From NCBI RefSeq assembly GCF_035084215.1, contig NW_027138550.1, positions 1 to 43,218 of the forward strand: a stretch of 43,218 nt of DNA. The letters run 5' to 3'. Source of the DNA: Heptranchias perlo (lineage: Eukaryota). The position numbers and the translations under genes are program-made. The notes beneath the pieces were generated by a model that did no database searches, was not told the DNA's origin, and worked only from the letters and a program-made list of their open reading frames with translations. Of this stretch, positions 32,596 to 40,814 are shown one piece after another. Every line of letters begins with the position of its first letter. Within the stretch, counting starts at the first letter, position 1.

Positions 32596-33090
32596 CACCT
32601 CGTAAGGAAACGTGCATAAATGACGTCGTATATTTTCCACATGGCGAAACCTGCAAATCAGATGACTGGCCAATTCAGCTGTGTTTTCTATCTGGTGTAA
32701 ATAGTTGGCAAAAGCACCAGAGGGGGAGATGAAGAGAATTTATTTTAAGCAGCGAGTTGTGATGATCTGGAATTCACTGCCTGATGGGGCGGTGGAAGCA
32801 GATTCAATAATCAGTTTCAAAAGGGAATTGGATAATTGGATAAATACTTGAAAACGAAAAATTTGCAGGCCTATGGGGATAGAGAATGGGATTAGGACCA
32901 ATTGGATAGCTCTGTCAAAGAGCCGGCACAGGCACGATGGGCCGAATGACCTCCTTCTATGCAGTAGCATTCTATGATTTTATGAACTGCTGTCAACAGT
33001 GGATTTATTGGTGTTTGATAATGGCGGAAACTGCTGTATTTCCTCTTGTTCTATTTTTGTACAGGTCTGGGGCTGATCCGTCTCACTGTG

Positions 33091-33563
33091 ATTCCCGAGC
33101 GCAGTAATAAGTGGCGCTCTCTTTCATTGTCAATTTGCTGATATCCAAAGCAAAGATATTGTTTGGAATGTCTTTGGAAGCAGTAACTCGGTCAATAACC
33201 TCTGGATTGTAGTTCTTGTTGCTTTCTTCATAGTACCGAACTAGCCAATCCAGCCTATTCCCTGGAACTTGTCGGTACCAGTGCATGACATAGCTTCGCA
33301 GATCGAAGCCGCTGGTTATACAGGTTAGTCTCAGGGACTGTCCGGCACTCCTGGTCTCTGCCTCTGGTTGTCTTAACACAACATCCGACTAGACACCTAT
33401 AAAAGTAAAGAAGCATTAATTATGGTGAAATGATTCCTGGCTCTGTAAAACCACCGAGAGGGACTAAAAGTGACAGAGAAACATTGGGACGCTTGGCGCA
33501 GAATAAGAGCTACTCACTCGATAGGAAACCAAGCAATAGACCGAGGGAAATTGCCGACATCAT
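33091..33563 (-). pseudogene. IgH(IgM)-like V segment VH-A1 with a nonsense codon in the leader
   Basis: Leader 33563-33518 MMSAISLGLLLGFLS. Exon 2 33396-33091 [50 protein letters not shown], with TAG at 33391-33389 (CAG in the paralog). RSS CACAGTG(33090-84)-23-ACAAAAATA. Confidence 0.9.
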
Positions 33564-33682
33564 GCTTGTTGGCACTTGGCTACATTCGGCGCCCGTTCCT
33601 CCAGTCACTCACTGGGCAAACCAGCTCCCGGATTGATGGATCCCGATTCTCAGTTACGGGGGTTTATGTAACCGGCAGAAGG

Positions 33683-33790
33683 GGGCGGGTTGGAAGACGC
33701 GACCTATTGGTTACATAGAACCCACGTCCACTGGAAGCACGTGACGTCATCCACCTAAACACAAACTGCGCGTTCACAATTGGTCATTAT
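33683..33790 (-). promoter_or_regulatory. VH-A1 promoter: CRE TGACGTCA overlapping E-box CACGTG, GC box, CCAAT
   Basis: GCACGTGACGTCA at 33737-33749, plus GGGGCGGG and two ATTGG. The same arrangement occurs at about 39046-39150. Confidence 0.65.
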
Positions 33791-33909
33791 TAAAGTAGGC
33801 CAGTTGAACATTATTCCTTAAGATTTAATCGTTAACAGAGGGTTGAGCGCAAAAATGTTATTCATAATTTTATGTTGACATTGCCCCTGGGAACATATTG
33901 ATTAAGATA

Positions 33910-34395
33910 GAATCATAGAATCAAACAGCGCAGACGGTGTCCATTCGGCCCATCATGCCTGCGCCTGCTCTTTGAAAGAGCTATCAGATTAGTCCCACTC
34001 CCCTGCTGTTTCTCAATAGCACCACATGTTTTTCCTTTTCAAGTATCTCCAGTTCCCTTTTTAAAAGTTACTGTTGAATCTGCTTCCACCTCCCTTTCAA
34101 GCAGTACATTCGAGATCATTGCTGCGTAAATGAAATTTCCTCATTTCACCTCTAGTTCTTTTGCCAATTTTCAGAAATCTGTTCTTACCTCTGGCTACCG
34201 ACCCCCTGCCAGTGGAAACAGTTTCTCCCTATATTCTCAAACAAAACCGCTCATAATATTTATCACCTCGATTAAATCTCGCTTAATCCTTTTCTGCTCT
34301 GAGGAGAACAATCCCAGCTTCACCAGTCTCTCCACATAACTAAAGTCCCACATCCCTGGCACCATTCTAGTAAATCTCCTCTGCACCCTCTCCAA
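33910..34395 (-). mobile_element. CR1 3' fragment
   Basis: LERVQRRFTRMVPGM motif and ATTCTATG tail. Confidence 0.8.
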
Positions 34396-37950: not shown

Positions 37951-38453
37951 AAGTTGTTGTTGTATCACCTCCTAATATTACGTGCTTAAATGACGCCGTA
38001 TATTTTCCACATAGCGACATCCTACAAATAAGATTACTGGCCAATTCAGCTGGGTTTTCTATCTCGAGTAAGTACTTCGCAAAAGCACCAGAGGAGAAGA
38101 TGAAGATAATTTATTTTATGCTGCGAGTTGCTATGGCCTGGAATGCATTGCCTGATTGGGCGGTGGAAGCAGATTCAACAATAACTTTCAAAACGGAATT
38201 GGATAAATACTTGAAAACGAAAAATTTGCAGGCCTATGGGGAAAGAGAAAGGGATTGGGACCAATTGGCTGGCTCTGTCAAAGAGCAGGCACAGGCACGA
38301 TGGGCCGAATGGCCTCCTTCTATGCAGTAGCATTCTATGCTTCTATGAACTGCTGTCAACAGTGCATTTATTGGTGTTTGATAATGGCGGAAACTGCTGC
38401 ATTTCCTCTTGTTCTATTTTTGTACAGGTCTGGGGCTGAACCGTTTCACTGTG

Positions 38454-38927
38454 ATTCTCCGAGCGCAATAATAAGTGGCGCTGTCTTTGATTGTCAATGT
38501 TTTGATACCCAAAACAAACATATTGTTTGGAATGTCTTTGGAAGCAGTAACTCGTCCTTTAAACTCTGGATTGTACTCATTGTTGCTTCCCCCATAGTAC
38601 CGAACGAGCCAATCCAGCCTATTCCCGGGACCTTGTCGATACCAGTACATGTGGTATTTGCTAAGATCGAAACCGCTGGTTTCACAGGTTAGTTTCAGGG
38701 ATTGTCCGGCACTCCTGGTCTCTGCCTCTGGTTGTCTTAACACAACATCCGACTGGACACCTATAAAAGTAAAGAAGCATTAATTATGGTGAAATGATTC
38801 CTGGCTGTGTAAAACCCCCGAGAGGGACTAACAGTGATACAGAAACATTTGGACGCTTGGTGCAGAACAAGATCTACTCACTGGATAGGAAACCAAGCAA
38901 TAGACCGAGAGAAATCTCCGACCTCAT
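38454..38927 (-). CDS. IgH(IgM)-like V segment VH-A2, apparently functional
   Basis: Leader 38927-38882 MRSEISLGLLLGFLS. Exon 38760-38454 [44 protein letters not shown](38453-47)-23-ACAAAAATA. Confidence 0.92.
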
Positions 38928-39045
38928 GCTTCTTGGCATTTGGCGACGTTGGGCGCCCGTTCCTCCAGTCACTCACTGGGCAAACCAGCTCCCGGATTGA
39001 TGGATCCCGATTCTCAGTCACCGGGGTTTATGTAACCGGCAGAAG

Positions 39046-39150
39046 GGGGCGGGTTGGAAGACGCGACCTATTGGTTACATACAACCGACGTCGACTGGAA
39101 GCACGTGACGTCATCCACCTAAACACAAACTGCGCGTTCACAATTGGTCA
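39046..39150 (-). promoter_or_regulatory. VH-A2 promoter: CRE/E-box, GC box, CCAAT
   Basis: TGACGTCA at 39106-39113 and CACGTG at 39102-39107. Confidence 0.65.
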
Positions 39151-39919
39151 TTATTAAAGTAGGCCAGTTGAAAATGATTCCTTATGATTTAATCCATAAC
39201 AGTGTTGAGCGCAAAAATGTGATTTAGCTTTTTATGTTAACGTTGTGTCTGGGCATATAATGATTAAGATAGAATCATAGAATCACACAGGGCAGACGGA
39301 GGACATTCGGCCCATCACGCCTGCGCCGGCTCTTTGAAAGCGTTTTTGACAGAGTGAAGACGGGTGTAGAGCACGGTGGTCTGACCGCACCGCACTGCAT
39401 GGCGAAGGATGACTATTATAGCGTGGTGACCCTGTTTACCTTACTCCACAATGCACAAGAATGTTGCAGATCACCATTGACAAATTAAACAAGACTGCAT
39501 ACGAGGCAACTCGTTTTATTTAAACTGTATTCAGTGTTCAGCACAAACCAGTTAGACAAGCTTAGAAGGGCTAAAGTACAAAAAAGGTAGTTAAACATTA
39601 GCGAGGTGTTATTTGCTTGTCTTTGTTCTTGCATTCAGTGCACCATAACGAGGTGCGAACTAGTGAATAAACACAACTGTTTCTACTCCAAATAAACAGA
39701 ACATTTGAGACGCTATAACCGCAACATTGAAATCGTGTCATGGGTAATTACGAGCTCATGGAACGTGCCTGGTTGTTTTATGAACGTTCGGAAGGAAGTT
39801 CTGGCAGTTGTTCCTGAAACTGGCTGGAGGGACTTTCTTTTTGATCCTCCCCGGAGTTAACGGTGTCTCCCCTGTCAGGGGCTTTTGCACCAGTTCAGTC
39901 GCGGTTCCTCAGGACTGTG

Positions 39920-40814
39920 TGGAGGCTGCGCAGTAATACACGGCGTAATCCTCGGCTGCGGTGTTACTGATTTTTAAATGGAACGTCGAGCTGTCGGCTG
40001 AAGCAGATAATCCGTCTCGGAGTCCAGAAGCACATTTGATATCGGAGCGATCGTAATATCTGGCCATCCATTCCAGGCCCTTCCCTGGAAACTGCCGATA
40101 CCAGTACATAAGGTAATCATCAATGTCACCGCCAGTCATTTTACATGAGAGTTGGTGGGACCCCCCAATCTTCGTGACACCTGCATCTGGCTGGGTCAAC
40201 ACAAGGTCAGAGCTGACTTCTGATAAAGGAAGAACAAAAAACAGGTAAATCCAGGTTAAAGTGAAAATAATTTAGTTCATAATTTTCGTATAGAAGTTAC
40301 AGGACAGAATCAGGCCATTCGGCCCAACCAGTCTATGGCGGTTTTTATAGCCATACGATCCTCCTCCCACTATAATTAATTCACCGCATTCTATCGACAT
40401 ACCATTCTATTCCTTTCTCCCTCATGTACTTTTCTAGTTTCCCGTTAAGTTTCGCGTTTCACATTGTAACCACTCTGCTTAATGTAGTTTCTCCTGAATT
40501 CCCCTCTTGGATTTATGAATGACTATCTTATATTTATGACCCATTAGTTTTTGCCCCCACCCCCATAATTGGAAACGTCTTCTCTTACGTCTACCCCATC
40601 GAATCCTTTCATAATTTTAAAGACCTCTATCAGGTCACCCTTACTCTCTTCTTTTTTAGAGAAAGTCTTCTCTTTTTTTTAGGGAAAAGAGCCCCAGCCT
40701 GTTCCGTCTTTCCTGATAGTTTTATATCACAACTTCTTAGTGGAGTGAAAAAGTGTAGCAAAACTCACGTGTAACTTAAGCTAGAATCACAGCGAGACAC
40801 GTGGCGATTTCCAT
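39920..40814 (-). pseudogene. Divergent IgH-like V segment VH-B2 with a nonsense codon in the leader
   Basis: Leader 40814-40769 MEIATCLAVILA* (CAA>TAA). V exon 40219-39920 is open. RSS CACAGTC-24-GCAAAAGCC is degraded. Confidence 0.88.

What the first reader, a model, noticed from the sequence alone, without database searches (positions are those of the whole stretch)
33052..40814. IgH-like V segments embedded among TCR V segments without their own D-J-C cluster
VH-A has a typical shark IgM VH leader and framework (MRSEISLGLLL..VQSDVVL.QPEAET..TSGF..TASKD..NNIFAL). VH-B is a divergent VH-like type (PGKGLEW, short FR3). Both have WYRQ, more typical of TCR V than the usual VH WVRQ. Shark IgH genes normally have D, J and C closely downstream; here there are only repeats and TCR V genes. 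Ig-like V use by TCR delta (TAILV and IgH V chimeras) is established in nurse shark, but these families may be new.
Basis: partly seen in the sequence, partly recalled or inferred. Interest (0 to 1): 0.7.

Follow-up and report, generated by a model that had tools for sequence, protein, structure and literature searches.

The report
Antibody-type V genes beside TCR-delta
Four antibody-type variable gene segments (two intact, two broken) are the nearest V genes upstream of this shark's T-cell receptor delta D-J-C genes and likely supply antibody-like binding domains to T-cell receptors, a kind of gene already reported in other sharks; they look orphaned here only because this contig likely comes from one T cell whose DNA was already rearranged.

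Summary
The four IgH-like V segments are real: two tandem VH-B/VH-A pairs, all with WYRQ. VH-A1 and VH-B2 are intact; VH-A2 and VH-B1 carry stops. The missing D-J-C is partly an artefact. Window 19990-43218 equals contig C240, where these are the nearest V genes, 13-22 kb upstream of D-delta, followed by 7 J-delta, C-delta, 29 J-alpha and C-alpha. The window breaks at a V-to-D-delta signal joint that two DNA runs do not show, likely one T cell's read. VH-A is IgM-derived and groups (100/99) with catshark, basking shark and bamboo shark V genes, two of them modelled onto J-delta/C-delta, so it is not a new family. VH-B is a second, long-branch, probably IgW-type lineage with a decayed private D; I found no close relative (best 49-55%). 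Both likely join D-delta or J-alpha by ordinary V(D)J deletion. The scan noted similar genes before in other shark genomes, and the joint in this window.

The parts
33052..33563 (-). VH-A2, IgM-derived V pseudogene: leader 33518-33563, V exon 33091-33396 with a stop in framework 1, 23-RSS 33052-33090; nearest V to D-delta (13,096 bp on C240)
   Evidence: spliced RNA-type contig cover
34859..34932 (-). D-like relic behind VH-B2: 3' 22-RSS 34859-34896 (2 mismatches), 9-nt core 34897-34905, decayed 5' RSS with 11-bp spacer 34906-34932
   Evidence: spacer type and distance resemble D1 of the IgM clusters on C240
35448..36389 (-). VH-B2, intact Ig-like V of a second lineage: leader 36344-36389, V exon 35487-35786, 23-RSS 35448-35486 (3 mismatches)
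   Evidence: trees
38415..38927 (-). VH-A1, intact IgM-derived V: leader 38882-38927, V exon 38454-38760, 23-RSS 38415-38453 (2 mismatches)
   Evidence: trees; leader/upstream 70% like the embedded IgM cluster V
39341..39414 (-). D-like relic behind VH-B1: 3' 22-RSS 39341-39378 (3 mismatches), 14-nt core, 5' RSS with the spacer cut to about 6 bp (predicted dead)
39880..40814 (-). VH-B1 pseudogene: leader 40769-40814 with a stop, V exon 39920-40219, RSS with 24-bp spacer
   Evidence: spliced unrearranged transcript contig
41455..41785 (-). Divergent non-Ig V ('odd V') just upstream of the four, weak 23-RSS (5 mismatches); leader not located; 12 nt shorter in frame than on C240
   Evidence: 46% to a segment in the same order in basking shark model P0002
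19946..20019 (.). Signal joint: 23-RSS of a TCR alpha/delta V (C240:899716) fused head to head, with 6 untemplated bases at 19985-19990, to the 5' 12-RSS of D-delta (C240:804584); it replaces D-delta/J-delta/C-delta in this contig

Best explanation
These are antibody heavy-chain-derived V segments that sit as the nearest V genes upstream of D-delta in a shark TCR alpha/delta locus and likely join D-delta-J-delta (or J-alpha) by ordinary deletional V(D)J recombination, giving T-cell receptor chains with an antibody-like V domain. Shown: position, orientation, 23-bp RSS matching the 12-bp RSS of D-delta and J-alpha, and descent of VH-A from IgM VH. Shown: the D-delta 12-RSS was cut and joined in the molecule behind this contig. 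Inferred: VH-A was copied from an IgM cluster before several shark orders split, VH-B came separately from an IgW-type cluster as a V-D1 block, and a later tandem duplication of the B-D-A unit left one intact copy of each family. Inferred: both lineages changed the framework-2 residue after Trp to Tyr, as in TCR V, to pair with a TCR gamma V. Inferred: the window contig was built on a single long read from a T cell that had joined an oppositely oriented V to D-delta by a 95-kb inversion.
For: Window 19990-43218 = C240:804583-827817 at 99.70%. Downstream on C240, same strand: D-delta with 12/23 RSS at 804583-804569, 7 J-delta, C-delta and TM exons at about 792.0 and 788.9 kb, 29 J with FGxG among 30 12-RSS sites tested at 767-723 kb, C-alpha at 717.8 kb. 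No IgH J or C hit in C240:780-835 kb; only TCR-delta hits. Tree of 67 V domains: VH-A1/A2 with catshark P0028, basking shark P0002 and bamboo shark P0022 V at 100/99, among canonical IgM VH; VH-B inside the VH clade at 98/88 (VH-A clade again 100/99 in a 33-row tree). P0028 and P0002 are NCBI gene models running from this V into TCR-delta J and C. Tyr after the FR2 Trp: 4 of 4 window genes, 3 of 3 orthologues, 23 of 23 TCR alpha/delta V; 0 of 13 IgH-cluster VH of this genome and 0 of 11 database VH. VH-A1 versus the IgM-cluster VH dN/dS 0.32. RNA-type run X5 has a leader-spliced contig and a VH-A2 exon contig that stops at 33094, 3 bases before the coding end, while DNA run X1 covers on (one study, weak hint). 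Signal joint: no contig bridges it in DNA runs X1 or X3; loose ends continue as germline V and germline D-delta; five single-base insertions within 100 bp of the joint are absent from both runs, a sixth from one; no second contig with the D-delta/J-delta side. N bases in TCR-delta signal joints are known (PMC2192893, abstract).
Against: No transcript joining VH-A or VH-B to a TCR D, J or C was seen; the laid RNA data are assembled contigs of runs only guessed to be RNA. The clear RNA-type cover is on the two pseudogenes (VH-A2, VH-B1), with only trace depth on VH-A1. P0028 and P0002 are computed gene models, not cDNAs. The place of VH-B is unresolved: AU tests reject neither VH-B + IgW-type (p 0.39), VH-B + VH-A (p 0.25) nor VH-B + three TCR V (p 0.12). 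dN/dS between the copies is uninformative or high (A1/A2 0.66; B1/B2 1.87 on 2 silent changes). Contigs drop rare variants, so absence of the joint does not prove it somatic.
Confidence: 0.85

Rival explanations
1. The four genes are decaying leftovers of IgH clusters that lost J and C and are seldom or never used; VH-B in particular may be a dying V-D block.
For: Two of four are pseudogenes, both D relics have a decayed 5' RSS; VH-B has only two copies in the genome search (150 of 260 candidates scored) and no close relative in databases; VH-B1 gives an unrearranged spliced transcript through its RSS.
Against: VH-A is kept in four sharks as one clade with shared changes; VH-A1 and VH-B2 keep leader, splice sites, both cysteines and a usable RSS after long divergence from any IgH V (63% and 49% at best).
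Confidence: 0.1
2. The V genes serve B cells, rearranging over distance to D-J-C of the IgM clusters embedded about 230-270 kb away on C240.
For: Two IgM clusters with D1, D2, JH and C lie at C240:1051-1062 kb and 1092-1105 kb, and their D 12-RSS are compatible with a 23-RSS.
Against: Those clusters have their own V and are on the other strand; shark IgH rearrangement is usually within a cluster (PMC12227049, introduction); the WYR motif is absent from all 13 IgH-cluster VH here; D-delta is 13-22 kb away in the same orientation.
Confidence: 0.03
3. The inversion at 19984/19991 is an inherited haplotype, so on this allele the Ig-like V genes really are cut off from J-delta/C-delta and the fused signals act as a new 12/23 D segment for them.
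For: The left 20 kb of the window differs from every C240 repeat unit (tiles 84-100%), so it likely comes from the other haplotype; the joint has the form 12-RSS, 6 nt, 23-RSS, 13 kb downstream of VH-A2 on the same strand.
Against: No bridging contig in two DNA runs where both germline ends are present at depth about 6 or more, uncorrected single-base insertions cluster at the joint, and no reciprocal V-D-delta coding joint was found in the assembly.
Confidence: 0.05

Closest known systems
[quoted passage not shown] 2019, not held, known to me from PMC12227049 text and Table S1 and from recall) and 'Ig-TCRd V' / 'IgWVTCRD' rows of that table
   Same: Ig-like V genes with no IgH J or C, directly upstream of TCR-delta. 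In catshark the table lists TAILV, then 1.8 kb on IgWVTCRD, then TCRA; P0028, the best VH-A relative, has the same NCBI description and species and is likely that IgWVTCRD model. Stingray and epaulette shark rows show Ig-TCRd V in the same place.
   Different: Two distinct Ig lineages in a duplicated B-D-A unit, one with a D1-like relic. Which of the two, if either, is the orthologue of nurse shark TAILV could not be tested. My tree puts the P0028 V with IgM VH, not IgW as the table label suggests.
IgM/IgW VH-to-TCR-delta trans-rearrangement from IgH miniclusters (Criscitiello 2010, not held; passages in PMC12227049, PMC5931798, PMC6795676, PMC3457774)
   Same: The predicted product is an IgH-type V on D-J-C delta.
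   Different: There the V belongs to a working IgH cluster; here the V genes have no IgH J/C, have diverged (63% and 49-55% to the nearest cluster VH) and carry WYR.
VH-delta of frog, birds and platypus (PMC3457774, passages)
   Same: VH genes resident in the TCR alpha/delta locus, captured more than once from different VH groups.
   Different: Shark IgM- and IgW-type donors; no orthology tested.
Chromosomal signal joint of inversional V(D)J joining with N additions (PMC2192893, abstract)
   Same: Head-to-head heptamers, intact signals, untemplated bases, TCR-delta locus.
   Different: Seen in a shark genome assembly as a separate contig.

Membership tests
TAILV / Ig-TCR-delta V | V domain of IgH type rather than TCR type | tested here: met
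   Both families fall in the VH clade at 98/88; best hits are VH. For VH-B the AU test against a TCR placement did not reject (p 0.12).
TAILV / Ig-TCR-delta V | Located inside the TCR alpha/delta locus, upstream of D-delta in usable orientation | tested here: met
   13,096-22,000 bp upstream of the D-delta 12-RSS on C240, same strand.
TAILV / Ig-TCR-delta V | No IgH J or constant region of its own | tested here: met
   tblastn of IgM and IgW J/C queries gave no hit in C240:780-835 kb or the window.
TAILV / Ig-TCR-delta V | RSS compatible with D-delta or J-alpha (23 to 12) | tested here: met
   23-bp RSS on VH-A1, VH-A2, VH-B2; 24-bp on VH-B1.
TAILV / Ig-TCR-delta V | Expressed on TCR C-delta or C-alpha, not on Ig constant regions | tested here: inconclusive
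   Contigs show splicing of leaders but no joint to D/J/C; orthologues are only gene models.
TAILV in the strict sense (nurse shark lineage) | Orthology to the published TAILV sequences | not testable with these tools
   Paper not held; no sequence named TAILV among database hits.
Shark IgH minicluster (IgM/IgW) | V-D1-D2-JH-CH within one cassette | tested here: not met
   Only a D1-like relic behind VH-B; no D2, JH or CH, unlike the clusters at C240:1051 kb and 1092 kb.
NAR-TCR | IgNAR-type V with own D-J followed by a supporting V-delta | tested here: not met
   NAR-type V form a separate 100/99 clade; true NAR-TCR cassettes lie elsewhere on C240.
RAG signal joint | 12-RSS and 23-RSS fused heptamer to heptamer, each traceable to an unjoined germline segment | tested here: met
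   V at C240:899716 and D-delta at C240:804584.

The most novel reading that the evidence does not exclude
VH-B is a second, undescribed Ig-to-TCR capture: an IgW-stem V-D1 block that moved next to D-delta independently of the IgM-derived VH-A, reached the same TCR-like WYR interface by convergence, and still uses its private D to build V-D1-D-delta-J-delta junctions with long antibody-like CDR3.
Probability: 0.25. Interest if true: 0.6.

Novelty: new member of a known kind. Interest (0 to 1): 0.36.

Why it matters
It adds a fully mapped case of Ig V genes resident at the D-proximal end of a shark TCR-delta locus, shows one lineage (VH-A) is shared by several shark orders, and shows two Ig lineages with the same Val-to-Tyr change at the V-V interface, a testable rule for what an antibody V needs to work in a T-cell receptor. 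It is also a warning: assemblies can hold contigs built on rearranged lymphocyte DNA that make V genes look orphaned. The surrounding contig holds something likely more novel than the finding itself: six NAR-TCR cassettes, each with its own J-delta and C-delta.

Tried and rejected
Papers not held: Deiss 2019, Ott 2021 (53, 57), Criscitiello 2010 (58), Matz 2021 (59), Flajnik 2024 (46); what I say of them comes from citing papers or is marked as recalled, and their supplements (TAILV sequences) bear directly on the membership question. Literature searches; only PMC12227049 named TAILV in the relevant sense. Word-index protein searches found nothing for VH-A1, only bamboo shark models for P0022, and no close relative of VH-B2 among longer proteins (6 hits of 90 candidates, best 39-46%); these searches are insensitive. 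The Atlas does not hold VH-B2; the P0028 look-up gave generic Ig/TCR clusters. No RNA holder is on record as RNA, and no cover of the VH-B2 exon in X5-X7: no evidence either way. My first reading of 19985-19990 as a germline D was dropped. The map used window letters to fill an unfetched part of C240 and was replaced by real C240 sequence from then on. A recalled likeness of the odd V to the human D-proximal V-delta-2 gene was not supported by two PDB searches. No octamer was found upstream of any of the four genes or the IgM-cluster V, so promoters do not discriminate. No complex prediction was run: any two V domains would pass by likeness. C240:1-347 kb, 357-680 kb and 1505-1715 kb were not fetched.
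Full report
Observation. A six-frame and RSS scan finds four IgH-like V exons on the minus strand, in the order VH-B1, VH-A1, VH-B2, VH-A2, each with an RSS. They are two copies of one B-A unit, 89-92% identical, with non-coding flanks 90-95% identical. With leaders located, VH-A1 and VH-B2 are open from start to RSS; VH-A2 has a stop in framework 1 and VH-B1 a stop in the leader and a 24-bp spacer. Both stops are also on the second copy of this DNA in the assembly. Five 22/23 RSS with at most 3 mismatches lie in 33001-41800 against 0.135 in shuffles. 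Two of them have no V in front: they are 22-bp RSS 590 and 541 bp behind the VH-B genes, with a 9- or 14-nt core and a decayed 5' signal, resembling in spacer and distance D1 of the IgM clusters (461 and 443 bp). I read them as D1 relics (inference).

Context. The window is the whole of contig C383; the same genes lie on the 1.7-Mb contig C240. Window 19990-43218 matches C240:804583-827817 at 99.70%, while window 1-19984 matches, inverted, a repeated V array at about 887-940 kb. On C240 the DNA downstream of VH-A2 runs, on the same strand, into a single D with 12/23 signals (804583-804569), 7 J, a constant exon at 792.0 kb with a TM exon at 788.9 kb, then 29 J with the FGxG motif among 30 sites tested, and a second constant exon at 717.8 kb. 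This D-J-C-J array-C layout is that of a TCR alpha/delta locus (established knowledge), and the first C matches the TCR-delta-type C of shark models P0028 and P0002 (46% and 42%). My pattern scan listed 77 V with RSS in the fetched part of C240; the four Ig-like genes are the nearest to D-delta (13.1, 15.5, 18.5 kb for A2, B2, A1). No IgM or IgW J/C hit lies in 780-835 kb. Two complete IgM clusters lie further up at 1051 and 1092 kb on the other strand, as described for other sharks (PMC12227049, part 1 of 8 and passages read).

Why the window looks orphaned. The break at 19984/19991 is exactly between a V 23-RSS (best match C240:899716, 99%) and the 5' 12-RSS of D-delta, with 6 bases from neither side. 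That V points the other way, 95,132 bp off, so joining it to D-delta inverts the interval and leaves this signal joint on the chromosome. N bases in TCR-delta signal joints, more so in inversions, are known (PMC2192893, abstract). In DNA runs X1 and X3 (one sample, possibly the one assembled) no contig bridges the joint; loose ends carry on as germline V and germline D-delta, and single-base insertions in the window at 19927, 19934, 20012, 20044 and 20070 are absent from both runs (19893 from one). No other contig holds the D-delta/J-delta side. A single unpolished read from one T cell is the simplest reading (about 0.9); contigs drop rare variants, so this is not proof.

Descent. VH-A1 is 63% identical to the V of the embedded IgM cluster, with a 70% match over leader and upstream DNA. 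A search of 50%-cluster representatives gave catshark P0028 (63-64%), basking shark P0002 and bamboo shark P0022 (61-63%). P0028 and P0002 are gene models that run from this V into J-delta and C-delta; P0002 also holds, in the same order, a relative of the odd V at window 41494-41785 (46%). In a 67-row tree (I chose 23 of the C240 TCR V rows, 6 IgM-cluster rows of C1414, and database hits near the top) VH-A and these three form one clade at 100/99 among canonical IgM VH (again in a 33-row tree). VH-B has a long branch inside the VH clade (98/88), best identity 49-55% to IgW-cluster V of this genome, and shares their two-residue-shorter framework 3. AU tests reject none of three placements, so 'IgW-type' is a lean, not a result. 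Tyr after the framework-2 Trp is in 4 of 4 window genes, 3 of 3 orthologues and 23 of 23 TCR V, and in 0 of 13 cluster VH of this genome and 0 of 11 database VH. That this residue lies at the V-V interface is recalled knowledge; adaptation to pairing with V-gamma is inference.

Expression. Three runs guessed to be RNA (one study) were laid on 33000-40500. X5 and X6 have contigs (depth 43.9 and 13.4) that join a VH-B leader to the VH-B1 exon at the exact splice sites and read through the RSS to about 39530: an unrearranged germline transcript of the pseudogene. X5 has a leader-spliced contig and an exon contig for VH-A2 that ends at 33094, next to the coding end, where DNA goes on: a weak hint of rearranged transcripts. 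VH-A1 has trace depth only. No joint to a D, J or C was listed (151 joints and 1158 loose ends were not shown).

Mechanism. Shown: placement, orientation, signal compatibility, and that the D-delta 12-RSS is used. Inferred: VH-A1 and VH-B2 join D-delta, then J-delta, by deletion, or a J-alpha directly, and the chain pairs with TCR gamma (or beta). VH-B2 may pass through its D relic, whose 11-bp 5' spacer may still work and whose 22-RSS fits the D-delta 12-RSS.

Comparison. This works like, and by position and type belongs with, TAILV / Ig-TCRd V. Table S1 of PMC12227049 (both parts read) lists in catshark TAILV, then IgWVTCRD, then TCRA, and Ig-TCRd V next to C-delta in stingray; P0028 is likely the IgWVTCRD model (same species and description; link not shown by a call). 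The two-V order there recalls B then A here, so VH-B may be the TAILV orthologue. Passages of PMC3457774, PMC5931798 and PMC6795676 confirm IgH V use by TCR delta in sharks and repeated VH capture in tetrapods; PMC13433984 (passages) added nothing.

Verdict. Real, well explained, known kind: new member, interest 0.36. The open part is VH-B and its D relic; the side finding of self-contained NAR-TCR cassettes on C240 deserves its own look.

Noticed in passing
G000:C240 about 1160-1166, 1203-1211, 1287-1295, 1384-1393, 1431-1439 and 1470-1477 kb (loci L049-L080, L118): Six self-contained NAR-TCR cassettes: NAR-type V, J, supporting V-delta, one J-delta and an own C-delta exon (64-66% identical to the main C-delta). 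In all six the supporting V runs straight into the last bases of a D-delta-like element and a D-delta-type 23-RSS with homologous flank, which looks like an inherited V-D-delta coding joint that founded the cassette. Resembles TCR-mu clusters; not seen in the passages I could read.
   Followed up: partly
G000:C1414 clusters (L086-L091, L115) and C240:1092 kb: Clusters with IgM-type J and constant exons carry V genes that group with IgW-type VH (95/83; constant type checked for one C1414 cluster and C240:1092 kb). Only one canonical IgM-type VH was found in the assembly (C240:1051 kb; 21 of 21 candidates scored).
   Followed up: partly
window 41455-41785 (-): Divergent V just upstream of the Ig-like genes, kept in the same order in basking shark (46%) and similar to a softshell turtle segment next to a VH (37%); possibly an old D-proximal V-delta lineage. 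The window allele lacks 12 nt in frame.
   Followed up: partly
window 19946-20019: V-to-D-delta signal joint with 6 N bases, likely from one T cell; the whole contig is a rearranged product.
   Followed up: yes
window 39529-40814: The VH-B1 pseudogene gives the strongest spliced, unrearranged transcript contig (depth 43.9 in X5). In X6 the contig has a VH-B2-like 5' part on a VH-B1-like leader (6 differences where 15-16 are expected): a graph chimaera or a converted allele.
   Followed up: partly
window 1-19984: Inverted TCR alpha/delta V array (RSS at 3188, 5269, 6913 minus; 11712, 17070 plus) that matches the C240 repeat units as a mosaic (tiles 84-100%), suggesting copy-number or conversion differences between haplotypes.
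   Followed up: partly
G000:C240 956862/957228, 1182525/1183001/1183310: Pairs of 22-bp RSS 300-500 bp apart behind short G-rich cores with no V found in front; possibly further D relics.
   Followed up: no
G000:C8 1.73-1.95 Mb (L092-L095): Several near-identical V exons that run directly into a J-like end with no RSS between: germline-joined light-chain-like genes.
   Followed up: no
G000:C240 350-353 kb (L097): A V-like and a C1-like Ig exon far below C-alpha; may be UrIg2, not checked.
   Followed up: no
window 42385-42507, 42796-42909, 43044-43179: Short tandem arrays (21, 43 and 25/50 bp) at the contig end, the last rich in a CRE-like word.
   Followed up: no
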